Source: Trichechus inunguis (lineage: Eukaryota). Taken from it: 64,000 nucleotides of DNA. Position numbers and translations under genes: made by a program. The notes under the pieces were generated by a model. The model saw only the letters and a list, made by a program, of their open reading frames with translations, was not told the origin of the DNA and did no database searches. The stretch is from assembly GCA_046562895.1 (NCBI GenBank), contig CM102154.1, forward strand, positions 28,077,733-28,141,732, given 5' to 3'. Position 1 is the first letter of the stretch; every line of letters starts with the position of its first letter. This document shows positions 3,001 through 30,037 of this stretch, piece by piece.

Positions 3001-3400
3001 TGACTAAGACTGGAGGAACCCCAGAAGACATGGCCCCCAGACTGTTAACCCAGAACTAAAACCATTCCCAAAGCCAACTCTTCAGACAAAGATTAGTCTG
3101 GACTATCAGATATAAAATGATACTTGTGAGGAGTATGCCTCTTAGTTCCAGCAGATACATGAGACTAAATGGGCAGCTCCTGTCCAGAGACAAGATGAGA
3201 AAACAGAAAGGGACAGGAGCTGGTTGAATGGATACGGAAAATCTGGGGTGGAAAGGACGAGTGTGCTATCACAGTACAGAGAGAGCAACTAGGGTCACAT
3301 AACAATGTGTGTATAAATTTTTGTTACGAGAAACAAACGAGCTGTAAACTTTCACTTAAAGCACAGTTTAAATAAATAAGTAAATACGTAAAGTATAAAA
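1..3400 (+). mobile_element. L1 (LINE-1) copy A. 5'-truncated at the window edge. Holds the ORF2 reverse-transcriptase and C-terminal part plus the 3'UTR with an A-rich tail. Degenerate, with multiple stops and frameshifts
   Basis: ORFs 348-1049, 1054-1410, 1497-1862, 1881-2117 and 2207-2410 translate to L1 ORF2 motifs ([58 protein letters not shown]). The 3'UTR ending '..gtaaactttcacttaaagcac..aaataaataag' matches the other L1 3' ends in the window. Confidence 0.9.
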
Positions 3401-3869
3401 ATTTTGTAAATGGTATTTTTAAGTCATTTCCTCTGCTAGACTATAAGAACGCTTCACCTTTTTGTTTCTTTTTTTTACTCCCTACAACACATGGCACATA
3501 TAATAGATGCTCAGTATTTGTTGAATGACACCTGAGACAATCTCACTAACTAGACCTTATATCTTAACTCAAAGCTCTCCAGCTGCCTAAACATATCCAA
3601 GCAGGACTGAGAACTTCTCCACTTCAACTTTCAAGATCGTGCAAATACAAAGGGGCAGAAGAATTTCAAGGTCGCTATGAGTTGGAATTGACTCAACAGC
3701 AATGGCTTTGTATCTTAAATAAAAAGTGTAGCTTGTCAAATTTCATCTCCAGATAAAGGAATCCACAAAGCACCAGGCTCAGGTAGAAAACTGGCCATGC
3801 AAGAATCTGTAAAGGCCTCTAATCAAGACTATTAGACATCGCCTATACAATACTAGAGGTAATGTGCTC

Positions 3870-4030
3870 AGCAGCTAACAAAGAGGTTAGTGGTACAAGT
3901 ACACCCACAGGTGGCTTGGAAGAAAGACCTGACGATCTACTTTTAAAAACTCAGTCACTGAAAATCTTATGGAACAGAATTCTACTCAGACATGCATGGG
4001 GTCGATATGAGTCAGAATCAACAGGACAGG
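3870..4030 (+). mobile_element. Divergent AfroSINE-like copy lying directly 5' of L1 B. A second tail fragment lies at 3655-3715
   Basis: '..aaagacctgacgatctac..cttatggaacagaattctactcag..ggggtcgatatgagtcagaatcaac' parallels the AfroSINE core '..gatctgcttccgtaaagattacagcc..ctatggggcagttctactctgtcctatagggtcgctatgagtcggaatcgac'. Confidence 0.5.
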
Positions 4031-4482
4031 AGGCGGGCCAAGATGGCAGAATAGCCAGGCGCCCTGTGTCGTCCCTCAAAGAGCTGAAAAAACAAGTGAA
4101 TTGAACATAGATGACAACCCTAAGCATCAAAGACGAAGCTGAAGAATCAGACTGCGCAACAGGTGGAAGGAAAGACAATTCAAAACAACGGAAATGGAAA
4201 ATTATGGATCGCCAGCATACTGTTAGCCGAACTTGCACAGTGTGGGCATACTGAGGCAAGCAGCAGCATCCCAAGCCGAAACCCATCCCGCCTGGTGCAG
4301 CTAAGCAGCAGCAACTCTGCACACATCTTCAGAGTCAAACAGGAGTGATACCAGACCTGCAAAAGTGCGTGCACCCAACCCACCATGAAAACCCCAGCAC
4401 CCCCCTCTGCCAAAGCTCCATGGGCCAAGGAGCACTCCTTCCCTCTCACCCATCTCCCTCCCCACTTTGACACCAGTCCAGT

Positions 4483-5455
4483 GGCATTCAACACTGCCAC
4501 ACCCCGTACGCCAGAACTCACCCCAGTCTGGAGGCATCCACCCCTTCACCCAGCCACTGGCACATGGGGTCCCTAAGCTTGCAGTGCCCTCCACCCCCTC
4601 CAATCACCAGCATCAGCACTTTGCTGGCCGAGCCAGAACAGCACATCTACATTGGGATAAGGCATGCAGACGTCCCAGCTGAAGAGCATTTTCACCTGCA
4701 GCAGGCAAGTGGGAGCCGCAGATCTGTGGCATTCAACACCACACCGCCCCCTATGTCAGTAGGTGTGGCCTGGTCCAAGGCGCCTGCCCCTTTGCCCACC
4801 CACTGGCGCAGGGGGTCCACGGACTTACAGCACCCTCCACCCCCTCTGATGACCCACACTAGCGCCTGGCTGGCCAAGCCGGTACAGCACATCCACACTG
4901 GGACAAGGTGGGAAGTGTTCCCAGCTAAAGCCCACTCAGAGCAGGCAAGAGGTAGCTTCAGACCTGTGACATTCAACACTGCCCTGCCGCCTAAGCCAGT
5001 AGATGTCTGCCTGGTCAGAGGCACCCGCCCCTTCACCTAAGCACTGGCAGAGGGGGTCCACGGACTTACAGAGCCCTCCATCCCCTGTGAACGGCCGCAC
5101 CAGCACCTTGCTGGTCAAACCAGTACAGCACGTCCACATTGGGACAGGGCAGGCAGTCTTCCCAGCTAAAGCCCACTTCACGTGCAACAGTCAAGCGGGA
5201 GCTGCAAACCTGTGACATTTTATACCACCCCGCCCCCTAAGCCAGTAGCTCTCAGCTCAGTTCAAGGCACTGGCCTCTTTGCAGAGCCACTGGCACAGAG
5301 GGTCCACAGAGTTGAAGTACCTTCCACCCCCTCCAATCACTCACATCAGCGCCTTGCTGGTCAAGCCACCACAGCACAGCCATATTGACAAGGTTGGCAG
5401 GGTTCCCAGCTGAAGACTACCTCAACTGCAGCAGCCCAACAGGAGCTGCAGACCT
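4483..5455 (+). repeat. Tandem array of four monomers of about 243 bp (starts 4483, 4726, 4966, 5213), plus partial units at 4385-4482 and 5456-5500, inside the L1 B 5'UTR
   Basis: Each unit begins 'tg[ga]cattcaaca..' and contains '..cactggc[ag]ca..gggtccac[ga]gacttacag..ccctccacccc..cagcac..ccaca[ct]tgggaca..cagctgaag..gcagcaggcaag..gagc[ct]gcaga[tc]ctg'. Periods are 243/240/247/243 bp. The proline-rich ORFs 4385-5388 on both strands are periodic artefacts of this array. Confidence 0.85.
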
Positions 5456-8400
5456 GTGAAATTGACCACGACTCCGCCTCCTAAGAAGGGAGCTCGACCA
5501 CCGATGCCTGGGACCTGAGGGCCAGAGGTACCGCCCACTCCATCCAGCCATCAACAACAGGGGCAGGAGGATTAGTGGTACCTCCTAATCCCTCCAGCCA
5601 ATGGCACCGGTCACCCAAGGACTGGCTGCACAACCCCCCATGAAATACTCCAGCAGAGAGGCATGACCTCCAACCGGGTGCCCATGGGAAGCCAAAAGCC
5701 CACTGCCTCGCACCCTGTATCGCCCTACACTCCAGCCAGAGACTTGTGCCTGCCTCAAACACCCCCACACAGCCCTGTCCACCCAGGACTGTAGGTGAGT
5801 CTGCACCACAACCCAGTGACCAATAACCTGGGAACCTTCACCCCAACCATCTGGCAAGCAGCAGAACCCAATGACCAGGGAAAACACCCCCTGCACCTAC
5901 AGCCAGGTGACCAGCATGACAGATACATCACCCCACCAAAAATGCCACCTAAATCCTCAGAAGCCTCATAAGAAGAGTGAAAAGGGTCCCATGTTCACAC
6001 ACATAGTAGCTGCTCCACTCCCCCTGAACAGGAGGTGAGAGCTTCAATGTAGCCAGATTTGCAGCCAGAGTGGCACATGTGCCCAGCCTTTTCGTATATA
6101 TAAAAACAAAAAAACAAAAATTCAGGATGCAGTAAACAAACATATAATAAATAAACATAATAACTTCTTGCTGCCTCGGAGACAACAGTCAACATCAAAT
6201 CACATAAAGAAGTAGGACAAGATGGCTCCAGCAAGTAACCAAAACAAAGAACCAGAAAACCTTCCAGAGGAAGATAAGGCAATGAAACTACCTGATAAAG
6301 AATTCAAAACACTGACATATAGAGTTGTCCAAGAGATCTAGAAAGAGATCAGGGAAAACACAGACAAAACCAAGGAAAACACAGACAAAACCAAGGAAAA
6401 CACAGAGGAACAGAAGAATTCAGGAAAACAACAGAACAAAATGACAGAATAAATAGGCTACTAGAAACCATACAAAAACAGCAACTAGAAATTCAAAAGG
6501 TTAACAATAAAATTTCAGAATTAGACAACTCAAAAGAAGGACAAAGAAGCAGAACTGAGACAATGGAAGACAGCATTAATGAGATTGAAGACAAATCTCT
6601 TAACATCAATTTATTTGAGGAAAAAATCACAAAAAAGAATGAAAAAAATTAAGAAAAGCTAAGAATTATTTAGAACATTATCAAGAGGAAAAACCTATGT
6701 GTGACCGGAGTTCAGAACAGGAGGGGATAATAGAAAACAGAGAGAGTACTGTTGACGATTTGCTGGCAGAAAACTTCCCTAATATCATAAAAGACAAGAA
6801 GATATCCATCCGAAAAGCTCAACAAACCTCATACAGGACAGACCCAGAAGAAAGTCACCAAGACATATCCATAATGAAACTTACCAAAACCAAAGACAAA
6901 AAAGAATCCTGAGTGCAGCTAGGGAAAAATGAAAAGTCACCTACAAAGGAGAACCAATAAAACAAAGCTCTGACTACTCAGCAGAAACCATGCAGACAAG
7001 AAGGCAATGGGATGACATATGTAAAGCCCAGAAAAAAAAAAAAAAAACTGAGAGCCAAGAACTATATATCCAGCAAAACTGTCTCTCAAATACCATGGCA
7101 AAATCAGGATACTTCCAGATAAACAGAAATTAAGGGAATATGTAAAAACCAGACCAAAATTACAAAAAATATTAAACAGAGTCCTCCAGTTAGAGAACCA
7201 ACAACATCAGAAAATAATACAAGACTAGGACACAGGACAGATCAACCAGATACCAACCCAGACAGGGAATTCTCAAAAACAAAACAAATCAAAAGACTGA
7301 AAATAGGGAACCAGAGACATTGATATGTAAATGACAGCAACATCAAAATGAAAAAGAGGGAAAGAACGGTGTAGTTACACAACTTCCATATGGAAAACAA
7401 GTCAAGGTGATATTAAGAAATAAAACTTAGGTAAATAAAGGTAAATTTCATGGTAACCACAAAGAAGTTAACAAACCTATACATCAAAATAAAAAAGAAG
7501 ACAAACATAAAGACTCAGTAAACACAAAATCAATAATAATGAGAGAAATGCAAAGAAAATCCACAAACAGAACTCAGCAAAGAAAATTAAGCAGAACACA
7601 GAAACCATGAACACTACAAAAACAACAAAATGACAGCAGTAAACTCATACTTCTTAATAATTATACTGAATATAAATGGCTGAAATGCACCAGTAAAGAG
7701 ATAGAAAGTGGCAGAATGGTTAAAGAAACATGATCCATCTATATGCTGTCTACAAGAGACACACCTTAGACACAAACACATAAACACACTAAAACTCCAA
7801 AGATAAAAAAATACATCAAGTAAACAATAACCAAAAAACAGTAGGTGTGGAAATGTTAATCTCCGATAAAACAGATTTTAAAGCAAAATCCACCACAAAG
7901 GATAAGGAAGGACACCACATAATGATTAAAAGGTCAATATATCACAAAAATATAATCTTAATAAATATATACACACCCAATGACAGGGCTCAAAAATACA
8001 TAAATTCTAACAGCCTTGAAAAGAGAAATAGACAGCTCCACAATAATAGTAGAAGACTTCAACATACCACTTTCAGTGAAGGACAGAACATCTAGAAATA
8101 AAATAAATAAAGATACAGAAGACCTAAATGCCACAATCAACCAACTCGACCTCATATACATATACAAAACATACCATACAACAGCAGCAAAGTATACATT
8201 CTTTTCCAATGCACATGGAACATTATCCAGAATAGACCATATTTTAGGCCACAAAGCAAGCCTCAACAAAACCCAAAGCATCAAAATAATACAAAGCATC
8301 TTTTCTGATCATAATGCCATAAAAGTAGAAATTAATAATAGAAACAGCAAGGGAAAAAAATCAAATACATGGAAATTAAATAACACTTTGCTTAAAAACA

Positions 8401-9742
8401 ACTGGGTAACAGAAGAAATCAAGGATGGAATAAAAAAATTCATAGAATCTAATGTGAATGAAAATACATATTACCAAAACCTTTTGGACACAGCAAAGCA
8501 GTGCTTAGAGATCAATTTATAGCAATAAACATACACATCAAAAAAATAAGAACGGGTCAAAATCAAAACATTACTCTACAACTTGAACAAATACAAAAAG
8601 AGAGCAGCAAAAGAAGCCCAGAGGCACCAGAAGAAAGGAAATAACAAAGAGTAGAGTAGAAATAAATGAAATAGAGAACAGAAAAACAATTGAAAGAATC
8701 AACAAGACCAAAAGTTGGTTCTTTGAAAAGATCAACAGAATCGACAAACCACTGGCCAAACTGACAAAAAAAAAGCAGGAGAGGAAGCAAATAACCCAAA
8801 TACAAAATGAGATGGGTGATATCATAACAGACCCAACTGAAATTAAAAAGATCACAACAGAATACTATGAAACATTGTACTCCAACAAATTTGAGAACCT
8901 AGAAGAAACAAATTTCTAGAAACGAACTACCTACCTAAACTAACAGAAACTGAGGTAGACAAACTAAACAGACCCATAACGAAAGATGAGATTGAAGAGT
9001 TAACAAAAAAACTCCCAACAAAAAGAGCCCTGGCCCAGACGGCTTCACTGGAGAATTCTACCGAACTTACAGAGAAGCGCTCACACCAGTACTACTCAAA
9101 ATATTTCAGAGCACAGAAAAGGAAGAAATGCTCCCAAATTCATTCTGTGAAGCCACCATAACCCTGATACCAAAGCTAGGCAAAGAAATGCACACACAAG
9201 AAAGAAAACTACACACCATGAATACAGACACAAAAATTCTCAGCAAAATTCTAGCCGACAGACTTCAACAGCATATCAAAAAAATAATACAACATGACCA
9301 AGTGGGATTCCTACCAGGTATGCAAGGATGAAAATAAATCAACATAATCCACCACATAAATAAAACAAAAGAATCACATGATCATCTCAATCGACACAGA
9401 AAGGGCATGGGATAAAGTCAAACACCCATTCCTTTTAAAAACTCTCAGCAAAATAGGAATAGAAAGGAAATTCCTCAACATAATAAAGGGCATTCATACA
9501 AAACCAACAGCTAACATCATTCTCAACAGAGAGAGACTGAAATTATTCGTCTTGAGAACAGGAATCAGACAAGGATGCCCTTTATCACCCACTTATTCAA
9601 CATCATGTTAGAAGTCCTAGTAAGAGCAACAAGGCAAGAAAAAGAAATAAAGGGCATCCAAATTGGTAGGGAATAGGTAAAACCATCACTCTTCACAAAT
9701 GATATGATCCTATACATAGAAAATCCCAAAGAATCCACAAGA

Positions 9743-10300
9743 GGGGTAACAGACCAAACTACCACAACCTCCACCAGACTGAGCCCTGAACAACTACATG
9801 GTGCCTGGTTACCACCGCCGACTGCTCTGGCAGGGAACGAACACAATAGAGAGTTTCGGACAGAGCTTAAGAAAAATGTAGAACAAAATTCAAATTCACA
9901 AAAAAGACCAGGCCTGCTGATCTGACAGAGACTGGAGAAACCCCAAGAGCATGGTCCCCGGATAACCTTTTAACTCAGTACTGAAATCACTCCTGAAGTT
10001 CACCCTTTACTCAAAGATTAGACAGGTCTAAAGGGCCAACAGTAACATACATGAGGGTTGTGCTTCATAGTTCAATCATGGATACGAGACTAATGGGCAA
10101 ACTAGCCCAAAAGCGAAGGCAAGAAGCGACAGGAAACTGGACGAATGGAAACAGGGAACCTGGGGTAGAGAAGGGGAGAATGTTGACACATTGCGGGGTC
10201 GGCAACCAATGTCACAAAACAATTGTGTATTAACTGTTAAATGAGAAACTAATTTGCTCTGTAAAGTTTCACCTAAATCACTCTAAAAAAAAATAAAAAA
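9743..10300 (+). mobile_element. Nested 5'-truncated L1 3'UTR fragment (about 560 bp, ending in poly(A)) inserted into the RT domain of L1 B ORF2. Flanked by a 15-bp target-site duplication 'aaagaatccacaaga' (9728-9742 and 10299-10313)
   Basis: The ORF2 sequence ..[11 protein letters not shown] | [16 protein letters not shown].. is continuous once the insert is removed. The insert matches L1 3'UTR blocks ('..ccagctaccaccaatgacc..', '..gttgacacattgcggggtcggcaaccaatgtcacaaaacaat..gtaaagtttcacctaaatcactctaaaaaaaaataaaaaaag'). Confidence 0.85.
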
Positions 10301-13100
10301 AGAATCCACAAGAAAGCTACTGCAACTAATAGAAGATGTCAGCAAAGTAGCAGGATACAACCTTAACATATAAAAATCAGTTGGATTTCTCTACACCAAC
10401 AAAGAACTTCGAAAAGGAAATCAGCAAATTAATATCATTTACAGCAGCCCCCCAAAAGACAAAATACTTACGGATAAATCTAACCAGGGACGTAAAAGAC
10501 CTATACAAAGGTAACTACAAAACACTGCTGCAAGAAACCAAGAGACCTACATAAATGGAAAAACATACCATGCTCATGGATAGGAAGACTCAACATCGTG
10601 AAAATGTCAATACTACCCAAACAATCTACAGATACAATGCAATCCTGATCCAAATGCCACCAGTATTCTTTAACAAGATGGAGAAATAAATCATCAACTT
10701 TATATGGAAATTGAAGACGCCCCAGATAAGTAAAGCATTACTGAAGAAGAACAAATTGGGAAGCCTCACACTGCTTGTTTTAGAACCTATTATACAGCCA
10801 CAGTAGTCAAAATAGCCTGGTACTGGTACAACAACAGACACACAGACCAATGGAACAGAACTGAGAACCCAGATGTAAATCCATCCATGAGCAGCTGATA
10901 TTTGACAAAGGGTGAAAGTCTGTTCGGAAAAGACAGTCTCTTTAACAAATGTTGCTGACATAACTAGATATCCATCTGTAAAAAAATGAAACAATATCCA
11001 CACTTCACACCATACACAAAAACTAACTCAAAATGTTATCAGAGCCCTAAATATAAAACCTAAAACCAAAAAGATCATGTAGGAAAATATAGGGACAGTG
11101 CTAGGGACCCTGAGACATGGCATAAATACAATACAAACCATAACTAACAATCCACAAACACCAGAAGAGAAATTAGATAACTGGGATGTCCTAAAAATTA
11201 GACACTTATGCTTATCAAAAGACTTCATCAAAAGAGTAAAAGGAGAACCTATAGACTGGAGAAAAAAATTTTGGCTACAACATATCGGATAAGGGTCTAA
11301 TCTCTAAAATCTACAAAATACTTCAACATCTCAACAACAAAAAGACAAATAATGTCTCCAGACATTCGGGCAGCTAACAAACACATGAGGAAATGCTCAC
11401 AATCATTAGCCATTAGAGCAATGCAAATCAAAACTACAATGAGATACCATCTCTCCCCAACAATACTGGCACTAATCAAAAAAAAAAAAAACAAACTTTA
11501 GAGAGGTTGCAGGGAGATTGGAACTCTTATGCACTACTACCGCGAATGTAAAATGGTACAACCACTATGGAAAACAATATGGCACCTCCTTAAAAAGCTA
11601 GAAATAGAAATACCATACAATCCAGCAATCCCACTCCTAGTAATATATCCTAGAGAAATAAGAGGTATCATATGAATAGATGTATGTACATCTATGTTCG
11701 TTGCAGAATTATTCACAATAGCAAAAAGATGGAAACAACCTAAATGTCCATCAACAGATGAATGGATAATCAAATTATGGTACATACACACAATGGAATA
11801 CTACGCAACGATAAAAAACAATAATGAATCCGCGAAACATCTCACAACATGGATGAATCTGGAGGGCATTATGTTGAGTGAAATAAGTCAATCACAAAAG
11901 GAAAATTTTTTATGAGACTACTACTACAAGAACTCAAGAAAAGGTTTACACACAGATGGGTGGGGAGGGCTGGGGAGAGGAAATCACTAACTAGATAGTA
12001 GACAAGTGTCAACTTTGGTGAAGGGAAAGACAATACACAATATAAGGCAAGTCAGCAAGACTTGACGAAGGCAAAGTCATAGAAGTTTCCTAGACACATC
12101 CAAACACCCTGAGGGACTGAGTTACTAGGGCTGAGGGCTGGAGACCACAGTCTCAGGAGACATCTGGGTCAACTGGCATAACAAAGTTCATAAAGAAAAT
12201 GTTCTACATCCTACTTCGTTTGGTGAATAGCATCTGGGATCTTAAAAGCTTGCAAGTAGCCATCTAAGCCACATCTATGGGTCCCATCCCATCCAGAGGA
12301 AAGGAGAATGAACAAAACCAAAGACATGAGGGAAGTATTAGTCCAAAGGACTAAAGGACCACATGAACCAGAGCCTCCACCAGCCTGAGCCCAGAAGAAC
12401 TAGATGTTGCCCAGCTACCACCACCTCCTGCTCTGACAGGGATCACAACAGAGTCCCGGACTGAGTGGGAGAAAAACACGGAATAAAATTCAAATTCACA
12501 AAAAAGACTAGACTTACTTGTCTGACAGAGACTGGAAGAACCCCCAAGACTATGGCCCCCGGACACTCTGCTAACTCAGAACTGAAACCACTCCCAAAAC
12601 CCACTTTTCAAACAAAGATTAGACAGCCCTTTAAAACAAACAATAACACATGTGAAGAACGTGCTTCTTAGTTCAATCAAATATATGAGATCAAATGTGC
12701 AACTCCTGTCCCAAACCAAGACAAGGCAGGAAGGGACAGGAACTGGACAGACACAGGGAATCCGAGTTAGAAATGGGGAGAGTGTTGTCACATTGTGAGG
12801 ACTGCAACCAATGTCACAAAACAATATGTGTATAAATTTTTGAATGAGAAACTAACTTGAGCCATAAACTTTCACCTACTAAGCACAATAAAATTAAAAA
12901 AAAAAAAAAAAAAAAGAATCAACTTGACAGCAACTGGTTCAGCTGGTTAGACAATACCTGCTCATGGGACAGCCACAGAAGGGAAGAAGAATTCACTAAT
13001 CTGTGTCCACTAACAATGTCCTCAGCTGTCAGTGAAAGGCCAGGAAGTGCAGGCAATTAGTTCAGAGGGGCATAAAAAAGGAAAGGCAAGAGACACTCAC

Positions 13101-13315
13101 AAGGGGACCTTCTCCTCTGTGGTTAGGCTAAACACCACCTTTCCCAGGACCACAGCACCACTATTCACACCAGGTTGAAGCACACTCAATGGCTTGAGCT
13201 CCAGGGTCACCTTCTGCCCAGAGGCTGACTGATAGCGCCCATCACCACAAGGGCCTAGATGAGCTGGGCGCAAGCTTCCCAGCATGCTCTGCAACTTTTT
13301 GGTCTTTACCTTTCC
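13101..13315 (-). CDS. TTC5: TTC5 coding exon, penultimate in human numbering: [71 protein letters not shown], then a phase-2 donor. Acceptor ttttgcag|GGAAAG, donor CCCTT|gtgagt
   Basis: The translation matches my recall of the human TTC5 C-terminal OB-fold region. Canonical AG/GT splice signals sit at both ends. Confidence 0.8.
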
Positions 13316-13487
13316 CTGCAAAAGAAATAGATAAGGAGCCGGAAATTAAGTCACTGCTTGAGAGTCTAGTCTTTCCCTCCAACCACACACCTCTATCAGA
13401 TCAACACCACATCAGCCTATTTTCTTCTTATTTTACTGACCCTACCCAAAATGAAAGAGCAGGGTCCAGTCCTTTAGACGTCTTTAC

Positions 13488-13634
13488 CTTGCTCTCAAGG
13501 AGGCTGGTTAATCTATCCAGGAATTCCAGGAGCTGTTGCTCTCGTTGCAGGGGCTCAGGCCAGGCAGGGTCCAGTGCTGCAGCCCGAGAGAAGCCCTCCA
13601 GGGCCTCTCTGTAACTCTCTTCATATTTATGCAA
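13488..13634 (-). CDS. TTC5: TTC5 coding exon (49 codons): [49 protein letters not shown]
   Basis: Acceptor ttcttgtgcag|TTGCAT, donor AGCAAG|gtaaag. Contains the TTC5 TPR region motifs. Confidence 0.8.
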
Positions 13635-14126
13635 CTGCACAAGAAGTAACCCAAAACCTCCCAATTACAAGTGTATTTAATACAAACTATGCAGGGGGAG
13701 GAAAGGCATAGGGGCTAGGAATTTAGAGAAATAAACTGCTTCCCTTCCCAGTCCTACCATGAACAGCCTGGAGAGCTGGTAACACCTTACAACCTTCCTT
13801 CCTGGCCAAGGTGATCACAACCCCAAAGCTGGAATCATTTCAAAGAAGCTATCCTCCAAGCTCTAAAATAATTAAATTGCATATACTGGGTCATTTTATA
13901 CCTATAATTAACATTTCAGAGAAGTCTTCTAAACTATTTCCCCATCCTCTATGTACCATCCCACCTCCTCAGTCCGTTCCGCCTCCAGTAACTCCACCAG
14001 ATACTGAAGCCGAAGTGAGCTAACTCTTCCTAGAAATAATCTGGCTTTCTGCTAGAAATCTGTACCCAACCTTGTCTCTATATGTACTCAGTTATCCTCA
14101 GAGGACCACTACCTCACAGGTCTTAC

Positions 14127-14183
14127 CGTCGCCCTGTTCAGATGAAGGTCAGGATTGCTGGAAGCTGTCCTGTCGACCTTCTC
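14127..14183 (-). CDS. TTC5: TTC5 micro-exon (19 codons): EKVDRTASSNPDLHLNRAT
   Basis: Found by searching for the residues expected between the flanking exons. Acceptor ctgtag|GAGAAG, donor GCGACG|gtaaga. It is in phase with the neighbouring exons. Confidence 0.7.
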
Positions 14184-15089
14184 CTACAGTGGGATAAAAA
14201 GATCATCAGTGGATCCTGTCTCAGTCTTAAGGAGGGCCATGCTCAACCGTTCCTAGACCTCTTCTCTCTAAAAAAAAATGCTAAGTCTCTTGTCAAAATG
14301 CTACCCATACCCACACTGTTACATACCAACTGCTTGTGTGGTATATAGTTACCAACAAGTATAACACAAAACATCATCCAAAAAGGATTACTCAGTCCCT
14401 GAAACCTCAGCAATGTATGGGGTTTTGTGTGTGTGTGTGCATGGAACTTTAAAATATGATTATAATTTATCCATACGATATTAGAAAGATAGAAAAGAAG
14501 TATGAGAAAGCATTCTGCTTTTTTTTCTTTTTTAAATAGTGAGATGCTGATATAATGAGGAAAGCCTCTGACAGAAATGATGTTAACTTAATGCATTTCG
14601 TTTGCCCATGAGTTTGACTCCAGGCACATGCAGAATGTTTCTATATCCAAGCTCCTTAAAACACACACTGGAAGTGTCAAATTCTGATTCTCTAATTTTA
14701 ACAGCTGGTCAAAAATCATAGGACAGGGCAGACAAACGTGCTCTCAAGAAACTGCTGGCTATCTTCATTCTATTTTTTTAATTCTATTCATTGCCTGGCA
14801 CATTGCCAAAGCATAAACAACATGAATTAAAACTGTTTACAATGGTTGGTTCACATATATTTTAAACTGCAGGTATGGGTGAAGAATTTAAAACAACCAT
14901 TTAAGAGAAGTCAAATATAAAATCATAAAGGAGTACATCATATTATTGGAAATGTAAACATTCATCAGATTAAGAAATAAGAGCAAAATATAATTTCTCT
15001 GCCTAAGTTTCTTAACTGAAAAAAGGGCAGTCCCTGAACTGCACACATGAATATGGGGTAACTGTATTCTTTCTTATGCCATACAGAGC

Positions 15090-15480
15090 AAAAAAGTAAT
15101 GCCAATAAAGAGAAACGAAGTCTTGATACATGCTACAACATGGATGAACTTGAAAACACCATGCTGAGTAAAATCAGTCAGTCAAAAAGGACTAATATTG
15201 TATGATCCACTTATATGAAATATCTGGAATAGGCAAGTGTATACAGACCTGTTTATTAGTGGTTACCAGGGGCAGGCAGGAAGGAGGGGAGAAAGGGAGA
15301 ATCATTGCTTAGAGGACACTGAGCTTCTAATAAGGGTGATGGAAAAATTTGAAACAGATAACAGTGATGAATGCACAACATCATGAACACAATTAATGTC
15401 ACTGAATTATACATGTGAGGAATGTTGAAATGGCAAATGTTTTGTTACACATATATTTACTACAAAAAAAAACCAGAATG
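15090..15480 (+). mobile_element. Older eutherian-type L1 3' end in a TTC5 intron: ORF2 C-terminus ..MDELENTMLSKISQSKRTNIV*, then 3'UTR and poly(A)
   Basis: Conserved L1 ORF2 terminal motif, and a 3'UTR '..aattaatgtcactgaattatacatgtg..tgttacacatatatttactacaaaaaaaaaa' like L1M/L1P 3' ends. Confidence 0.6.
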
Positions 15481-16587
15481 CTGGATTTTACAGATAAGGT
15501 AGTAGGTCTTATAATTGTGAGGTTTTTTTTATTATTGTAAAACTGAGGTTTTCTAATAAATTGTAAAATGCCTCTGGGGAGATATAACGGCAAGTTAAGA
15601 AGCAATTCCCTATGTCAAGAGAAGAAAGCAAAAGAAAAGTTAAATATGAGGGTTAAATAAAAGGTGCTCAGAAGGCCAATGTGAATCTCCAAATAACCAG
15701 TAACTGAGCAGACAAAGCCTGAAGAGCCCATGCATTTGGCTATCAATACAGCATGGCCTAAAAGCAAAGCATGAGCTCCAGTGAATTAATTCCTAGGAAA
15801 TGATGCAGAAGGGCCTACATGCTATTACCTGTTTGAGTCTAAGGGAAATCCAGAGCCAGAATATCTAACAGTTAATTTGGGAATAGCCCTTAATTTGCAC
15901 GGCCAATGTGCCTCAAGTGCAGCCACTACTCATTGGTCAGTGGAGACTTGCATGTTGCTATAATGCTGAACATGTTTCAGCAGAGCTTCCACACTAAGAC
16001 AGACTAGAAAGAGAGGCCTGGCAATAGACCATATATTTATGCAAATAATGCATGTCTTCTACGTTCATTTGCCAGCTGCACCCTCCCCCTACCTTTCCCC
16101 GATATTTTCGTAAACATGCTATGCTAATTTTTTTTCACAGCAACATGTTAAAAATAATTGGGATAGCAGCGCTTATGAAAATACCTCCCGGGGTGAGGGC
16201 GCAGTTGTCAAAAAAACGCAGAAGGTATGCATTATTTGTGTAAAAATACAGTACTTCCAAAAAAAATCAGCCAATATAAAATGCTATGAGTCACAATGGT
16301 CCAATTCTCCACCAACCATGGGGATGGTGCAGGACCGGGCAGCGTTTTATTCCACTGGGCATGGGGTCACCAAGAGTCAGGGGCCAACTGGACGGCAGCT
16401 AAAAACAGCAACAACTGGAGTTTTCCTTTTTATTTAAAAATGTACACCAACAGGAATAAATATTTTAAAAAATTTTTTGCCCATTAAAAACAATGCACTT
16501 GCTGAAGTGAGTTCTGTGGTTTGGTTAGGCATGACTTTGAGAAATCTAGACTGCTCACGGAGCTATCTAGCATTGAGACCAAAAAAA

Positions 16588-16742
16588 ACCAAACCCATTC
16601 CCATCGAGTCAATTCCGACTCACAGCGACCCTATATGTCAGAGTAGAACTGCCCCATATGGTTTCCCAAAAACGGCTGGTGGATTCAAATGGCTGTCCTC
16701 TTTTAGCAGCTGAGCTCTTAACCACTGCACCACCAGGGCTCC
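16588..16742 (-). mobile_element. AfroSINE copy (tRNA-derived afrotherian SINE) in a TTC5 intron. A further tail fragment lies at about 16330-16420 (+)
   Basis: Reverse complement of 'ggagccctggtggtgcagtggttaagagctcagctgctaa..ggattcgaaccaccagc..gggaaaccatatggggcagttctactctgacatatagggtcgctgtgagtcggaattgactcgatggg'. Confidence 0.85.
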
Positions 16743-16955
16743 AGCACTGAGACACGACACTGCGGATGGTTGCTAATACTCAAGCTGTAAGGAAAAATAA
16801 GTTGCCTCTGCAGACACAGCTCAGCAAACCCACATGTTAGATGCCAGCAAACACTGCCCAGGCTTCTGGCTAAAGGGCCACAAAGAAGACAGAATGACGC
16901 TCTTGCTTCTGTTGTTGCCTCTATTCATCTGGCCTGGGTGACCGCAAGTACTTAC

Positions 16956-17047
16956 TGCTTGGGCATAAGCACTGAGGGCTTGCTGGGAGATCTTAGGGCT
17001 CTGGCCAGTATTGAAGTAAAGAGAAAGGTATGCATTCCCCAGGATAT
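16956..17047 (-). CDS. TTC5: TTC5 coding exon: (Y)[30 protein letters not shown]
   Basis: Acceptor ctttcag|ATATCC; donor CAAGCA|gtaagtact, a consensus donor. Confidence 0.8.
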
Positions 17048-17446
17048 CTGAAAGAGAAATACAGAGATGGGTCACCTCAGAGCCCAAGTTCAAGATATGA
17101 CCTGTTTTGGTCATCCTCAAAAGTCTACTTGAAAGATGGCACATCTGACACAAACCAGTGATAACACCACATTTAGTATACCAAAATTCTACTGAGATAG
17201 ACAAACACAAACGCTATGAAGAAACCTTGAACAGACCGTACAAATCTCTGCCTTCCTTATATGGAAACATAAGCCTCCTAGAACAGTGGTTCATCAAAGT
17301 ACCTTTGGAGCTTCTTCAAAACAAACATGCCCTGGCTTCACCCTCAGAGTCAGAATCAATAGGTGGGGTCCAGATGATTCTGGTGTGCAGCCATGGTTGA
17401 GAACCACTGCTCTAGAAACGTCTGGAGATCTTTTGAGAGCACTCAC

Positions 17447-17597
17447 ACCAGGAGCGGCCATCATGGACATCCATCTGCACAGCCAACTTGGCCTGTCGGA
17501 CACTATCCATGACATAGCGAGAATGTTCATCTCCAGTGTCAGTCCGCAGCTGGCGAAGCACCATTGACAGGTTTTGCAGGGAGACTTTGTTCTTGCA
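17447..17597 (-). CDS. TTC5: TTC5 coding exon: [50 protein letters not shown](Y)
   Basis: Acceptor ttctcag|TGCAAG; donor TCCTGGT|gtgagt. Confidence 0.8.
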
Positions 17598-18021
17598 CTG
17601 AGAATGGAGAAGATGTTTACTCAACATTCCTTGCACTGTGAATGGAGATGTTTACTCAACATTGCTAATTATACCTCCTCTTTCCAGATCTATTCTGACC
17701 TCAATCCTCTTCTAAATCTAATTCTTTAATTCTTGCTGCCATCTGAATCTTAGACCCCCATCTACAAGGACCAGCTTGGTTGTTAACTTTTCTTCACTTC
17801 CCATCTACCCTGAACCTGATCCCATTACCTTCTTCTTTTCTCAGTTCCCTGTCCTGACCTTCTTCATCCGGGTCTGCTCCCCGACTCTTCCTCTCTTCTG
17901 ATTCTGTTCTCCTGGTTCTAACTCAGCTCTGTGCTAGTATTCATACCCTAGGGCAATTCACAGACCAGAGGAATCCCATCCTTTCTACACGCGTTTTCTG
18001 AGGGGACAGCGGGCAGCTCAC

Positions 18022-18233
18022 ATGGGTGAGGGCTCCTGAGAAGCAGGTATGGGCAGCTGCAACATCCCCTTTCTTCCAGTACACCTCACCCAGCTGGTTC
18101 CAGGCTTCCACCAGCTCAGGTTCCAGCTTTACAGCCTTTGACAGAAGCTCCTCAGCCCTAAGGCTATAGTCAGGAGTCACATTCAGTGCCTTCCCAGTGA
18201 GCATCAGAACCCGGGCCTTGCCCTGGACAGAAC
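18022..18233 (-). CDS. TTC5: TTC5 coding exon: (G)[70 protein letters not shown]
   Basis: Acceptor ctcgtag|GTTCTG (phase 1); donor ACCCAT|gtgagc. TPR-repeat signature (WxxLGxxYxxxGxxxxAxxxF). Confidence 0.85.
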
Positions 18234-18464
18234 CTACGAGGAAGGGAAAAAGAGAAAGGAAAGTTGAAAAAACCAGTCAGTCTTTCAGATAAGACTAGAG
18301 CACTATCTCTCAAGGAGTAACTCCATGCCATCTCTAGGAATAAAAGAGTTGAAGAAAATCTTTATATACAAACCATTTATTGAAAGCCAACCATATGCAG
18401 AGTACTATGCTGGGTAATGGGGTAACAAAGAAAGCACCACCCCTACCCTTGAGGGGTTTACAAT

Positions 18465-18605
18465 CTGGTGGAAAGGCCAAAGATGTGGCAGTCTGCTTCC
18501 GTAAAGATTTACAGCTTTGGAAACCCTATGGGGCAGCTCTACTCTGTCCTATAGGGTCACTATGAGTTGGAATCGACTCCACAGCAGTGGGTTTGGTTTG
18601 GGGTT
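18465..18605 (+). mobile_element. AfroSINE, 5'-truncated. Another complete copy lies at 19518-19745 (+)
   Basis: '..gcagtctgcttccgtaaagatttacagctttggaaaccctatggggcagctctactctgtcctatagggtcactatgagttggaatcgactccacagcagtgggtttggtttgg'. Confidence 0.85.
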
Positions 18606-19278
18606 TATCTCACCTAGTAAAGTAAAACAACAATGGAAAGGAGCATATTATGTATGCCCAATGAGTTGGTTTTAAAAAGTCAAGAGGAGAGAAGACAAGG
18701 CCCTCCAGGTTAGAAAACGATGTAAACAAAGATGCAGAGGCAGAAATACACGTGACCTGTTTATGGGAGAATGGAAGGACCAACCCGGAAGAAATGAAAG
18801 ATTACTCTGTAAGTAGGTAGTCAGAGATGAGGTTAGAAAAAAGAGTGAGATGAGGGAGACCTGAATACCATATTAAGTGGCTTAGACTTCTGCTAGTCAA
18901 TAGCACAAATCTCTGAAGACGATAAGATTAAATGAATGAAGTAATGTTTAGAAAGGTAACCGTGGCCATGGTATTTATATAAGGTGCTTTGGAAATGAAA
19001 GAAATCAGAGGCAGAAAACTCAGTCATGAACATTACTGCAATAGTTCAGGCAACAAGTATGTTCTCTTATTCCATAGTATTTGCTATAATTTTAGGAAAA
19101 GTAGTTTAGAGAACTGAGAGGTCACCACCCTACGCAGGGGCCCTTAGAAGAAGTATTCTGTTATACTATCCTATAGCCGTCACAGATAGGATCCCAAAGA
19201 GACTACAGACAGAGAGCAAATCTCTATAACATTCAGGTGAAGAGCAGGAAGGGGGTTGTGCTCTTTTGGAACTCATAC

Positions 19279-19411
19279 CTGCTACTTCCTCCATCAGTCG
19301 CAGAGTCTTCTCCATCTCCTCCCGTACATCCTGTTGCTTCCTCCCAGCATCCTCAACACTATGTGTCTCGAAATAGCAGTCTCGAAATGAATAGAGCTGA
19401 TCCACCAGTTC
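19279..19411 (-). CDS. TTC5: TTC5 coding exon 2: [44 protein letters not shown](G)
   Basis: Acceptor ttctag|GAACTG; donor GTAGCAG|gtatga, phase 1. Confidence 0.8.
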
Positions 19412-21659
19412 CTAGAAGTGTAAGGATGGTACCATTAGGCAGAAAGAACACCAGACAAGGAAGTTTGAGACAGGCTAGCCTCACCAGCCCTTGGCCTAGA
19501 AATACTGAATCCCTGTCTCACCTACAGGATCCCTAGAGGCACAGTGGTTAAAGAGCTTGGCTGCTAACCAAAAGGTTGGCAGTTCAAACCCAACAGCCAT
19601 TCCACGGCAGAAAGATGTGGCAATCTGCTTCTGTAAAGATTTACAGCCTTGGAAATCCTATGGGGCAGTTCTACTCTGTCCTATAGGGCCGCTATGAGTC
19701 AGAATCAACTCAACAGCAGCAGGTTTGGTTTTGGGTTTATCTCACCTAGGAATGGCACAATAGGCAGGTGGTCAGGCCTATCAAAATGCCACAGATCATG
19801 CGTGGAAGTAGCCAGAGCCCCAGGCCCGCTCTCAGGTTGTCCCATTTTTGTAGTCTCTGCACCATGATGACAGTTCTCTCTTCCCCAGCCCCAGCCGGGC
19901 TTCCAATGTGACTAAGCACTTCACCTACCACAGTCAGGAGCAGGAGAAAACACTGTACAACATGAGATAAACCAAAAATTAACAAGCTCATCCTATCTGG
20001 TTCTGATCCCCAAAGAATAAAACTTTGAACTTTACCCTTAAACATGGACTTCCTAACAAAAATTTTATTCCTGATTTTTCCTATGCTGATGACAGGACTT
20101 TTGCAAATATAATAAACGTGAGAAAAGCAATGTTTTCCGCCATGAACAGACCAATTTGCTGTAACCTTAGCATTTTTGCAGGTTTTTTAAAAAACATTTG
20201 TGCTTTTGTTGTTGTTTTGTTTTGTTCAATTTGGCAAGTCATCTTCTGGCCCTCTTGCAGTCTTTGCAAGTAAGCATTCTCTTTCCTCTTTTTAATGCTT
20301 TATCACTGAGTCTTCCTGTGCCACCAGTCAAAGCTTTTCCGAAAACTGAACAGTAGAAGAAACTCATAATACAATCCCAGCAAATCTTATCACCTACCTC
20401 CACAACACACCCTAAATCCATCCACTTGTCTCCTTCCTGCTAGACCACCCTAGTCTAAGTCAGCATCATTAATTGCCTAGACTATTCCAGTAGCTTCCTA
20501 ACTGGGCATCTTGCTTCTACTCTCTCCCATTCTCACTGTAGTCAGTGTCCTTATAAACGCGTGCATCACCTCACAAACCCTCCAATAGTTTCCCACTGCA
20601 GTTAGAATAAAATCCAACTCCTTACCATGGCCTAGAAGGTCCTGTATGATCTGACCTTCCACTACCCCACCTTGCCACAAACTTCACTTCTTATCAAACT
20701 CTCCTTCCTGCAACACTTCAGCCACCCTGCCCTTCGTTCAGTTCCTCAAATCCACCAAGCGCCATTCCAACTTAGCATCTTTACACGTGCTTTGCCGTCT
20801 ACCTGGAACACTCTCCCCACACCTGTGCATGGCTCATTCCTCACCATTATTTAGATCTCGGCTCAAATATCAACTTCTCGGAGAGGCTTTCCCTAACTAC
20901 CCAATCAAAAGTAACTCTTTCTCCTCTCTTCCATGGTTAAATTATGCTCTTCATGACACTTTACTTATCAATCGAAACTATATGAACTATTCATTTAATT
21001 GTCTATTGTCTGTCTCTACCACTAAAGGTAAGCTCTGTGATGGAAGGGACCTTGTCTGTTTTGTTTACAACTATATCCAAGCACTAGAACAGGGATTGGG
21101 ACATGATAGGCGCTCATTAAACATACTAGTTGAATGAATTCACTAATGAATCCTCCCTGCCTCTAACAAATATGCTATGCTTAGTGTAAAAGGCTACGCC
21201 AAATAAACTGAGTGGACTATCACCCTCTGCAGTAGTGTTTTTCAAATTTTATTGTGTGGGGTATTTCCAGGCCCCAGCCTACAGAGATTCTGATTTTAGT
21301 AGATTTAGCAAAACTCCAAATTCTGCATTTTTAACAAGCACCCTGGATGACTATAATGAAAATAGTCCGTAAAACACTTTGAGAAATATCCTTCTATACA
21401 TCCCTTCTATCCTAAAATGTCTGTAACCATTAAATCAAAGCTTACCACCATTCCCATGTATAGTAATATCACTACCCAATCCTTTTCATCTCCTCTACCC
21501 CATTCTCTTATTCAATTCTGGCACCTACAATACCCCAAGTATCCTCTACCAAGCTGCTTAGGGCATCTACCACAAAGGTGTCTGGGAAGGGACAGTCCTC
21601 AGCAAAAATTACAACTCATCTCCTTTTGTCCTAAAATCAGCATAGCTGCAAATTGGAAG

Positions 21660-21760
21660 TTTTAAAGAGGGTTTTATTGTTTGTTTATTTGTTTGTGTTT
21701 TTTTAATTGTTAAAGCAAGCATGCAAAGAAATTATTTGGTTTTGTTTTTGTTTTGTTTTG
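21660..21760. repeat. (GTTT)n-type low-complexity / simple repeat. Another microsatellite, (TG)n, lies at 43003-43045
   Basis: 'gtttgtttatttgtttgtgttttt..ttttgtttttgttttgttttgttttg'. At 43003: 'gagtgtgtgtgtgtgtatgtgtgtgtgtgtgtgtatg'. Confidence 0.8.
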
Positions 21761-22903
21761 TTTTGCTGGAGTGAATATTTTTTAAAACTTTTTCTCATGG
21801 CAAAATCAATACATATAAGTAGTTAAAAATCAAATAGATATATGTAAAAAACAGAGAACACAAAATTCCTCATAATCATCCCAAACAACCTCAGAGAAAA
21901 CCACTGTTCAGTATTTCTTTTCAGATTTTTTCTATACATATTCAAACATATACACAATGTTTCTTATGTGCAGCCAGGGTTGAGAACCTCTGATTTCACC
22001 CAGTACACACTGGTAAATATAATGAAGTTAATCTAAATCACTTGGAAGTGAAATAAAGCCTACACTCTAAAAAGTGTTATTAATCTGTTCAAAAAACAAA
22101 GAAATTTCACCAGTGTTTAAACTTTTGCCTTAGAAGCTTTTAAGCAAGTTACAAGCCTGCCATAGGTCTAATGCTTAAATTCCAAGCTGTGTTAATACAC
22201 AAAGGACTGAGTTTCTGAGGTCTAAAACGAAAACCGTGGATCATTAAAAGAAAGGTAAGAGTCCAGCAACTAGTTAACTCCTATTTACCAAGCATAAAAA
22301 ACAAGTCCTAGTCTCAACCACAATCACATATGGACGGGGTAGACTCTGGACCCCTCTGCATCAACTCTCCAACTGGGGTTACCCCTAACTGGGATTAGAG
22401 TGTGCAAAATGATAAAAACTGTGAAGTCCCAAAGAGAGTACCAGCATACATGCAGTGCAGGCCATTACTATGATTGATGCCAATGTCAAAGCAGAGAAGT
22501 GTTAAATGGACTTTGTGGGGGTCAAAACTGCATGAGATAATACACCTCATATAGTCCAGCCATACACTTATGTACGCCATCTGTTAAGGATGAATCGAGA
22601 AAAAACCTTCCTAAGAATGTACAGGAATAAAGTTAGATGCAACAAATCGTCTTCCACACAGGACTGAAATTAAGTGCACTCAGGTCAGCAGCAGGAGGTC
22701 CCAATACATGGGCTGCGCCCCTCCCCTGGCCTGAGAGGCTCCCCTCGCTGCTTCGGCTGCACCCTCAGGAGTTGTTACAGTAACCCCAGAGACATAGGCA
22801 GCGCCGTGTATGTGCCAAGGAATTCGGCGGCACTACATAAACTGAGTCCTTTGCTTCTCCCCGAGTAATAAAAGCACGTATAGATTTTAATCTATGGCCC
22901 CAC

Positions 22904-22954
22904 CTGCAATTTCTGCAAGATCTGCTTGACTTCTTCCTCTTCATCAGCCATCAT
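22904..22954 (-). CDS. TTC5: TTC5 first coding exon: MMADEEEEVKQILQKLQ (ATG at 22954), donor TTGCAG|gtgggg. The 5'UTR and promoter lie immediately upstream at about 22955-23100
   Basis: Matches the TTC5 N-terminus. The long in-frame extension of ORF 22892-23089 upstream of MMADEEEE has no homology support and is taken to be 5'UTR. Confidence 0.75.
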
Positions 22955-23747
22955 CTCCCAGCCAGTCTCGGCTTCTCTGCCCCCAACTTCGTAACCACAG
23001 AGACGCATACTCACCCACCTCGTGGAGCCGCAGCGACATCTAGGGGTCTGGAGGTTTACCTGGAGTTGAGCATAAGAGCTGGTTTTCAAGAAGGGACATT
23101 ACTCCCAACCAACTTAACCGAATGCCTATAGCTCAAAAAAAATGCTCTCTATATATTACTTTTGAGTTAATAAATGTGTTTCTTTCCCAAATCCTGGAAA
23201 CAAAATGTTATCAGCTTAATTACATGTATGCTTTTGTTTCATAGTGTCCTACTTATTTATAATCAGATTATAATACCTAAAGAATTTAGAAACAGGTTAA
23301 GACAGTGGATGCCTGTGGTATGAGTTTGAAATTTTGAATGGAATGTGTTACACTGGTATACTATAGGTCTGATTTTTTTCCAAATTTCAGTGACTTTCTA
23401 TGTATGAGGAATTTTATAATTTTAAACATACCATCCTAATAAATATACACTTTGGACGCTATTTTAAAAGCCATCATGCTGTACATTAATAATGCTTGTT
23501 TATTCATACGTATCTAGAAGGATACATCAGAAACAATGATTTTCTGTGTAGAGGGAAACAGAGAGCAGAGAATTCTTTTCACTGGATACTCCTTTGTTAC
23601 CTTTTTAATTTTTTACCATGTACGTGTATTCAAAACTAAACTCACTGCTGTCGAGTCGATTCTGACTCATAGCAACCCTACAGGACGGAGTAGAACTGCC
23701 CTTATTCCAAACATAAGCACAATTTTTAAATATGAAAATATTTGTTT

Positions 23748-26061: not shown

Positions 26062-26264
26062 CTAAACTCTCTTTACTTTGAAGGCTCTACTAGAGACTTG
26101 CTGATGCTCTAATTCACGACTTGGAGAGGCAAAACTGAAAAAGCTGTTGCTGGGTTCAGGTGCTGTTGGAGAACCCACAAAAAATGGTCTGAATTGAAAA
26201 TCTCCATCTCCTCCACCCCGATTTCGAACTGGTGTATTGTCCAAAGGAAACTTGGAGTTGTTTC
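26062..26264 (-). CDS. CCNB1IP1: CCNB1IP1 (HEI10) last coding exon: (G)NNSKFPLDNTPVRNRGGGDGDFQFRPFFVGSPTAPEPSNSFFSFASPSRELEHQQVSSRAFKVKRV*. Stop TAG at 26062-26064
   Basis: Acceptor ttttttccacag|GAAACA (phase 2). The C-terminus matches human HEI10. The 3'UTR continues below 26062. Confidence 0.85.
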
Positions 26265-29572: not shown

Positions 29573-30037
29573 GAGTAGCATAAAGAAGAGAAGTCAAGAA
29601 GAGATAGAACATTCATTGTATCTGCCAAGGCAATTAACAGACAGAAAAGGGCCACTATCATCCTAGATCCCAGAGGGCAGAAATCCTACCTGGATAAGCT
29701 TTATATCTTCATTGACTAAGATTGTCCCCAACAGCCTGTCACATGAAACATGTTTGATAAATATTTGATGAGTGAACAAAGGAATGAAGAGCAAAAGAAC
29801 AAACCAACCTTATAACCGACAATAACTTTACAACTGTGTAGTCAGTATTGCTGTGCAAAAGAAACTGAAACATGACCTTCTAGGAAGACAGCAAATAGTG
29901 TGGGCTCTGTAACCATGACCAAATTACTTAGCCTTTCTGTGTCTCATTTGGTGATCTTTAAAGCAGGGATAATAATAATACTTACCTCATAGAGTTTTGA
30001 AAATTACATAAATACATGTAAAATATTCATAACAATC

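What the first reader, a model, noticed from the sequence alone, without database searches (positions are those of the whole stretch)
13101..22954. TTC5 ortholog: eight coding exons on the minus strand, terminal exon displaced beyond 13 kb of L1
All exon phases are mutually consistent and the translations match TTC5 (TPR and OB-fold protein): MMADEEEEVKQILQKLQ / [45 protein letters not shown] / [23 protein letters not shown]...ALTH / [10 protein letters not shown]...DGRSW / YILGNAY...AYAQA / EKVDRTASSNPDLHLNRAT / [10 protein letters not shown]...LLESK / GKVKTKKLQ...TTEEKVP. Their lengths sum to 1058 nt, 352⅔ codons of the 440 I recall for human TTC5. The missing 87 residues equal the human last exon, which must lie left of position 1. 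So the last TTC5 intron is over 13 kb and is filled by two same-orientation L1s (copy A and full-length copy B). The six-frame ORF track only shows fragments of these exons. The 19-codon micro-exon at 14127-14183 was recoverable only by homology-guided search. The six-frame ORF track could not have found it.
Basis: partly seen in the sequence, partly recalled or inferred. Interest (0 to 1): 0.5.

Follow-up and report, generated by a model that had tools for sequence, protein, structure and literature searches.

The report
Sirenian TTC5 gene, exons 1-8
This is the ordinary, intact TTC5 gene (a tubulin-mRNA regulator) of a manatee-like mammal, whose last two exons lie outside the window because old L1 insertions have stretched one intron to about 25 kb.

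Summary
Eight minus-strand exons at the stated coordinates have canonical AG/GT borders and sum to 1058 nt. They read as one open 352-codon frame that matches human TTC5 residues 1-352 (E 1.8e-217). The frame is 352/352 identical to Amazonian manatee TTC5 once an alternative-donor insert is removed. The neighbours CCNB1IP1, SNORA79, SNORD126 and RPPH1 support orthology.

The account of the 3' end is only partly right. The missing 88 residues are encoded by two exons (9 and 10), not one, in dugong, elephant shrew, gibbon and anteater. The expanded intron is therefore intron 8, the penultimate one. Neither exon is in the window. The colinear dugong locus places exon 9 about 12 kb left of position 1, which makes intron 8 about 25 kb. 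That compares with 3.2-3.7 kb in gibbon and anteater and 8.75 kb in elephant shrew.

About 12.3 of the 13.1 kb of intron 8 seen here is two plus-strand L1s, antisense to TTC5. One is a 3' fragment. The other is a decayed full-length 8.9-kb element with an 8-bp target-site duplication that splits an AfroSINE. Both are shared with dugong.

This is a known, annotated gene with ordinary repeat-driven intron growth. Interest is low.

The parts
22904..22954 (-). TTC5 coding exon 1 (ATG at 22954; MMADEEEEVKQILQKLQ), donor GT at 22903
19279..19411 (-). TTC5 exon 2 (133 nt)
   Evidence: AG/GT borders
18022..18233 (-). TTC5 exon 3 (212 nt; TPR region, carries K97, the SCAPER-contact residue)
   Evidence: PMC10403363
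17447..17597 (-). TTC5 exon 4 (151 nt; carries D175). An in-frame 27-nt extension, 17420-17446, ends at a weak GTTTCT donor. It gives the CECSQKISR insert found in the 449-aa sirenian isoform models.
16956..17047 (-). TTC5 exon 5 (92 nt)
14127..14183 (-). TTC5 exon 6, 57-nt (19-codon) small exon EKVDRTASSNPDLHLNRAT
   Evidence: tblastn E 8e-7
13488..13634 (-). TTC5 exon 7 (147 nt)
13101..13315 (-). TTC5 exon 8 (215 nt; linker and first 34 positions of the TTC5_OB domain). It ends in phase 2 (..CC TT|gt).
1..13100 (-). 5' part (13.1 kb) of TTC5 intron 8. Exons 9 and 10 lie beyond the window's left edge, about 12 kb and 14 kb away by dugong colinearity.
1..3400 (+). L1 copy A: the 3' part of an L1 (ORF2 reverse-transcriptase domain at 282-1046, degenerate A-rich tail at about 3370-3400). 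It is cut by the window edge and antisense to TTC5.
4023..12915 (+). L1 copy B: full-length in extent (8.9 kb) but decayed.
- 5' start ..GGCGGGCCAAGATGGCAGAATAGC.
- GC-rich 5' UTR with 246-bp tandem monomers (4532-5485).
- ORF1 RBD and dsRBD (6643-7225), ORF2 endonuclease (8004-8519) and RT (8996-9608).
- A nested insert of about 0.56 kb (about 9743-10298).
- Poly-A at 12896-12915.
- Flanked by GAATCAAC at 4015-4022 and 12916-12923.
3960..4022 (+). Left half of an AfroSINE-like element split by the insertion of L1 copy B. The right half begins at 12916.

Best explanation
Window 13101-22954 (minus strand) holds coding exons 1-8 of the single-copy, intact ortholog of TTC5 (also called STRAP) in a sirenian genome, most likely a manatee (Trichechus).

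From the literature, TTC5 is a protein with a TPR domain and an OB fold. It binds the N-terminus of nascent alpha/beta-tubulin on the ribosome and, through SCAPER and CCR4-NOT, triggers tubulin mRNA decay (tubulin autoregulation).

The gene has ten coding exons, as in other placentals. Exons 9 and 10 encode most of the OB fold and the functionally essential C-terminal tail. They lie outside the window because intron 8 has grown to about 25 kb.

The 13.1 kb of that intron seen here is about 94% L1. It consists of a 3' L1 fragment and an 8.9-kb full-length but dead L1 that inserted into an AfroSINE. Both are antisense to TTC5, and both were already present in the manatee-dugong ancestor.

Shown here: exon structure, identity, synteny, L1 anatomy and orthology of the insertions with dugong.

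Inferred: that exons 9 and 10 sit about 12-14 kb left of the window in this genome, that the gene is expressed and correctly spliced across the long intron, and the biochemical function.
For: - Exon structure: canonical splice sites, consistent phases and a 352-codon open frame.
- Identity: E 1.8e-217 to human TTC5 structure chains 6t59 and 8bpo over residues 1-352. TPR families and the start of TTC5_OB are detected.
- Species: 352/352 identical to Trichechus inunguis TTC5 after removal of the 9-aa alternative-donor insert.
- Functional residues: K97 (SCAPER contact, PMC10403363) and D175 (soluble-tubulin binding, PMC11570694) are present.
- Independent recovery: all eight exons are found by tblastn, and no C-terminal match exists in the window.
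- Gene structure elsewhere: ten coding exons at the same protein positions in dugong, Elephantulus, Nomascus and Tamandua, with intron 8 of 24.9, 8.75, 3.2 and 3.7 kb.
- Colinearity: window 1-32966 is colinear with the dugong locus at 95-97% identity. Window base 1 corresponds to dugong L001 position about 32744, and dugong exon 9 is at 44789.
- Constraint: exons are 98.8% identical to dugong, with 9 synonymous and 4 nonsynonymous codon differences.
- Synteny: CCNB1IP1 coding exons, SNORA79, SNORD126 and RPPH1 lie upstream on the same strand. From my own knowledge, not checked here, this is the order at human 14q11.2.
- L1 domains, poly-A tail and target-site duplication.
Against: - Exons 9 and 10 of this genome were not seen. 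Their position is extrapolated from dugong.
- No transcript evidence was available.
- The TTC5_OB Pfam hit within the window is partial and below the gathering score (23.3 against 30 bits). This is expected, because only 34 of the model's 115 positions are encoded here.
- The source species was not identified from DNA. Identity to T. inunguis rests on protein only.
Confidence: 0.96

Rival explanations
1. The locus is a 3'-truncated or decaying TTC5 copy (a unitary pseudogene or a gene broken by L1 insertion), with the C-terminal exons lost rather than displaced.
For: No C-terminal exon is present in 13.1 kb downstream of exon 8. Reading through the exon 8 donor gives a stop after two codons.
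Against: The colinear dugong locus carries the same L1s and has intact exons 9 and 10 further on, 100% matching the annotated protein. The annotated Trichechus inunguis protein includes the full C-terminus and is identical over exons 1-8. There are no stops or frameshifts, all splice sites are canonical, and synonymous differences outnumber nonsynonymous ones 9 to 4.
Confidence: 0.02
2. The next TTC5 exon is inside the window, hidden within L1 sequence. The candidate is the exact heptapeptide TFGLVDS at 8715-8653 on the minus strand, which matches the start of exon 9.
For: tblastn reports [21 protein letters not shown] against [22 protein letters not shown] at 8715-8653, E about 6.
Against: The match is not significant, needs a gap, and decays after 7 residues, whereas the true exon 9 is 48/48 conserved in each species against its own protein. 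The site is the antisense reading of a conserved L1 ORF2 segment (..[20 protein letters not shown].. on the plus strand). Its dugong counterpart lies inside intron 8, about 20 kb upstream of the real exon 9.
Confidence: 0.01

Closest known systems
Human TTC5 / STRAP (UniProt Q8N0Z6 from memory; PDB 6T59, 7QWS, 8BPO; mouse 4ABN; human OB domain 2XVS)
   Same: Residues 1-352 align end to end without gaps at E 1.8e-217. The architecture is the same, TPR domain followed by OB fold. K97 and D175 are conserved. The ten-coding-exon structure matches that seen in the gibbon ortholog.
   Different: A few conservative substitutions. Intron 8 is about 25 kb (inferred) against 3.2 kb in gibbon. The last 88 residues are not in the window.
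Annotated sirenian TTC5 (Trichechus inunguis P0001, Dugong dugon P0002; dugong locus GCA_030035585.1 CM057472.1:20993632-21050787)
   Same: 352/352 identical to T. inunguis, and 4 amino-acid differences from dugong. The locus is colinear with dugong at 95-97% DNA identity, including both L1s.
   Different: The database isoforms use a 27-nt downstream donor in exon 4 that adds CECSQKISR.
Mammalian LINE-1 (L1) retrotransposons in introns
   Same: Copy B has ORF1 RBD and dsRBD, ORF2 endonuclease and RT, a poly-A tail, an 8-bp target-site duplication and a 5' start resembling GGAGCCAAGATGGC (the resemblance to the human L1 5' end is from memory). The antisense orientation relative to the host gene is the commonly favoured one (established knowledge).
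   Different: The 5' UTR is long (about 2.3 kb) and GC-rich, with 246-bp tandem monomers. The element is heavily decayed and carries a nested insertion.

Membership tests
TTC5 orthologs | End-to-end sequence similarity to TTC5 | tested here: met
   E 1.8e-217 to human TTC5 over residues 1-352. The top 120 database hits listed carry the TTC5_OB domain, and all but a few unnamed or hypothetical entries are named TTC5.
TTC5 orthologs | N-terminal TPR domain | tested here: met
   Pfam TPR_11, TPR_2, TPR_1, TPR_17 and TPR_14 score above their cut-offs around residues 91-135.
TTC5 orthologs | C-terminal TTC5_OB domain (PF16669) | tested here: inconclusive
   Only profile positions 2-35 of 115 are encoded in the window (23.3 bits against a cut-off of 30). 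The rest is on exons 9 and 10 outside the window. It is present in the colinear dugong gene.
TTC5 orthologs | Conserved exon-intron structure (ten coding exons, same junction positions) | tested here: met
   Exons 1-8 have the same protein boundaries as in dugong, Elephantulus, Nomascus and Tamandua.
TTC5 orthologs | Conserved synteny (CCNB1IP1 with SNORA79 and SNORD126, then RPPH1, upstream) | tested here: met
TTC5 orthologs | Functional residues and C-terminal tail (K97, D175; tail 420-440 with V430 and T432) | tested here: inconclusive
   K97 and D175 are present (PMC10403363, PMC11570694). The tail lies off-window and is not testable here.
LINE-1 | ORF1 (Transposase_22 and dsRBD), ORF2 endonuclease and RT, poly-A tail, target-site duplication | tested here: met
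   The endonuclease hit is weak (19.4 bits against a cut-off of 24.5). The target-site duplication is only 8 bp, but it is supported by continuity of the AfroSINE across the junction.

The most novel reading that the evidence does not exclude
The seven- to eight-fold, L1-driven expansion of TTC5 intron 8 in sirenians, together with the annotated 27-nt alternative donor in exon 4, might have consequences for splicing or 3'-end processing. One example would be truncated isoforms lacking the OB fold and the C-terminal switch tail, which would alter tubulin autoregulation in this lineage.
Probability: 0.03. Interest if true: 0.35.

Novelty: already known. Interest (0 to 1): 0.08.

Why it matters
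It matters little beyond annotation quality. It also corrects the gene model at the 3' end: two terminal exons, with intron 8 rather than the last intron expanded. The biology is routine, namely growth of an intron by antisense L1 insertion in a conserved housekeeping gene.

Tried and rejected
That was off by one at each acceptor and gave a broken frame. Reading them as flanking intron bases fixed it.
- A search for the C-terminal 88-100 residues in the window, using tblastn with word size 2 and E up to 10, found only the non-significant TFGLVDS match in antisense L1 ORF2. I rejected it as an exon.
- The look-up of encoding contigs found no record for the T. inunguis protein, so I used the dugong locus instead.
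I used stop-free segments instead.
- I considered whether the GC-rich block at 4000-6100 was a CpG island or an unrelated sequence. CpG observed/expected is only 0.16-0.36. The L1-like 5' start and the target-site duplication at 4015-4023 place it inside L1 copy B as its 5' UTR.
- No PARP2 first exon was found with a from-memory query.
Full report
**Observation**

I read the minus strand of 12900-23200. The exons are therefore 22954-22904, 19411-19279, 18233-18022, 17597-17447, 17047-16956, 14183-14127, 13634-13488 and 13315-13101.
- Every internal exon is preceded by AG and every exon is followed by GT.
- The lengths (51, 133, 212, 151, 92, 57, 147, 215) sum to 1058 nt.
- The phases are consistent, and the joined sequence is one open frame of 352 codons plus two bases.

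My first attempt misread the junction numbers by one base and gave a broken frame.

**Identity**

The 352-residue product matches human TTC5 in PDB (6t59_TT, 440 aa) over residues 1-352 without gaps, at E 1.8e-217. It also matches the mouse structure 4abn and the human OB-domain structure 2xvs. Pfam finds TPR repeats above threshold. It also finds the first 34 of 115 positions of the TTC5_OB domain at the very C-terminus of the fragment, necessarily below the gathering score.

In the large protein database, the 120 hits listed all carry the TTC5_OB domain, and nearly all are named TTC5. The best are Trichechus inunguis (P0001) and Dugong dugon (P0002). P0001 is a 449-aa isoform carrying CECSQKISR after exon 4. 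With that insert removed, it is identical to the window's product at 352 of 352 positions. The window is therefore sirenian, most probably a manatee. The insert corresponds to an in-frame 27-nt extension of exon 4 (17446-17420) that ends at a weak GTTTCT donor, visible.

**The 3' end**

I ran tblastn with full-length sirenian and elephant-shrew TTC5, and with the last 100 residues alone. It recovers all eight exons, including the 57-nt exon 6 at E 8e-7. Nothing significant is found for residues after ..TTEEKVP anywhere in the 64 kb.

The only hint is an exact heptapeptide, TFGLVDS, at 8715-8653 (E about 6). I reject it as an exon for three reasons:
- It is the antisense reading of a conserved L1 ORF2 stretch.
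- It decays immediately after the seven residues.
- It lies in the part of the dugong intron far from the real exon.

I fetched annotated TTC5 loci for dugong, Elephantulus, Nomascus and Tamandua and mapped each protein on its own locus. All four have ten coding exons. The C-terminal part is split into exon 9 (48 full codons plus the split codon) and exon 10 (39 codons plus stop).

| Species | Intron 8 length |
|---|---|
| Gibbon (Nomascus) | about 3.2 kb |
| Anteater (Tamandua) | about 3.7 kb |
| Elephant shrew (Elephantulus) | 8.75 kb |
| Dugong | 24.9 kb |

**Where the missing exons are**

The window is colinear with the dugong locus:
- 6392-32966 aligns as one 26.7-kb block at 96.9% identity.
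- 1-5241 continues it at 95% identity.

Window base 1 corresponds to dugong position about 32744, and dugong exon 9 starts at about 44788. Exon 9 of this genome should therefore sit about 12 kb left of the window, and intron 8 should be about 25 kb. This step is an extrapolation from dugong, not an observation in this genome.

**Integrity and orthology**

Against dugong, the exons are 98.8% identical, with 9 synonymous and 4 nonsynonymous codon differences. The surrounding DNA is about 97% identical.

K97 is needed for SCAPER recruitment (PMC10403363), and D175 is needed for binding soluble tubulin (PMC11570694). Both are present.

Upstream on the same strand lie:
- The three CCNB1IP1 coding exons at 37462-37163, 30828-30493 and 26274-26065 (the query was recalled from memory, and the matches are 90-99% identical).
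- SNORA79 (43681-43827), SNORD126 (46671-46747) and RPPH1 (62225-62553).

Dugong also has the RING-finger neighbour upstream. The introns, the synteny and the lack of any defect argue against a pseudogene or a paralog.

**Content of the intron**

On the plus strand, antisense to TTC5, there are two L1 elements.

*Copy A (1 to about 3400).* It is the 3' part of an L1. It has an ORF2 reverse-transcriptase segment (RVT_1, E 2.8e-27) and a degenerate A-rich tail.

*Copy B (4023-12915).* It shows the following features:
- ORF1 RBD-like and dsRBD-like domains, an ORF2 endonuclease remnant and RT segments.
- A 20-nt poly-A tail at 12896-12915.
- Many stop codons.
- A nested insert of about 0.56 kb, inferred from the gap in its alignment to other L1 copies.
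- A 5' boundary set by the octamer GAATCAAC at 4015-4022, repeated at 12916-12923 directly after the poly-A.
- Joining the two flanks restores continuity with an AfroSINE-like element, as seen by comparison with the copy in intron 5.
- The element starts ..GGCGGGCCAAGATGGCAGAATAGC, which resembles the human L1 5' end as I recall it.

The GC-rich block at 4000-6100 includes 3.9 copies of a 246-bp tandem unit at 4532-5485. Its CpG observed/expected ratio is 0.16-0.36. It is therefore best read as the long monomeric 5' UTR of copy B.

Together the two L1s account for about 12.3 of the 13.1 kb. Both are present at the orthologous place in dugong, so the insertions predate the manatee-dugong split.

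**Mechanism**

Per the literature, TTC5 recognises the N-terminal motif of nascent alpha/beta-tubulin at the ribosome exit. It recruits SCAPER and then CCR4-NOT to degrade tubulin mRNAs (PMC10403363). Its C-terminal tail (about residues 420-440) toggles between a repressed complex with soluble tubulin and the active ribosome-bound state, and deleting it abolishes activity (PMC11570694).

That tail, and most of the OB fold, are encoded by the off-window exons 9 and 10. A functional product therefore requires splicing across the roughly 25-kb L1-filled intron. The antisense orientation of the L1s is the orientation usually tolerated in introns (established knowledge). Expression and splicing in this species were not tested.

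**Verdict**

The 3'-end model needs correcting: two terminal exons, with intron 8 at about 25 kb. This is a known, annotated, conserved gene with ordinary repeat-driven intron expansion, so novelty and interest are low.

Noticed in passing
window 26065-37462 (-): The three coding exons of CCNB1IP1 (HEI10) lie at 37462-37163, 30828-30493 and 26274-26065. They are 90-99% identical to the human protein as I recalled it. This is the upstream neighbour of TTC5, as in dugong.
   Followed up: partly
window 43681-43827 (-) and 46671-46747 (-): SNORA79 (123.9 bits) and SNORD126 (108.9 bits) are full-length Rfam matches. They lie upstream of the CCNB1IP1 coding exons, presumably in introns of its 5' non-coding part.
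   Followed up: no
window 62225-62553 (-): Nuclear RNase P RNA gene (RPPH1), a full-length Rfam match at 262 bits, in the GC-richer end of the window. No PARP2 first exon was detected with a from-memory query.
   Followed up: partly
window 35178-35310 (+): A U5 snRNA-like match only just above the Rfam gathering score (44.7 against 40 bits), inside a CCNB1IP1 intron. It is probably a U5 pseudogene.
   Followed up: no
window 17420-17446 (-): An in-frame 27-nt extension of TTC5 exon 4 ends at a weak GTTTCT donor. It encodes the CECSQKISR insert used in the 449-aa T. inunguis and dugong isoform models. Whether this isoform is real or an annotation artefact is unknown.
   Followed up: partly
window 4023-6320 (+), tandem array 4532-5485: L1 copy B has an unusually long 5' UTR of about 2.3 kb that is GC-rich (up to 60%). 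It contains 3.9 copies of a 246-bp monomer at 73% mutual identity. The overlapping alignment blocks suggest that the dugong ortholog has a different monomer number.
   Followed up: partly
window 4015-4022 and 12916-12923: An 8-bp target-site duplication, GAATCAAC, flanks L1 copy B. The insertion split an AfroSINE-like element, whose two halves lie at about 3960-4022 and from 12916 onward.
   Followed up: yes
window 8653-8715 (-): The antisense reading of L1 ORF2 contains the exact heptapeptide TFGLVDS, which also begins TTC5 exon 9. It is a coincidence that could mislead homology-guided exon hunting.
   Followed up: yes
window about 16590-16730, 18500-18610, 19560-19730 (minus-strand reading): AfroSINE-like copies lie in TTC5 introns 5, 2 and 1 (recognised by eye). 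They are consistent with an afrotherian source genome.
   Followed up: no
window 26820-34041 and 57257-61768: Further L1 copies lie in the CCNB1IP1 region and near RPPH1, similar to copies A and B. They appear as secondary matches of these window segments to L1 copies in the dugong locus.
   Followed up: no
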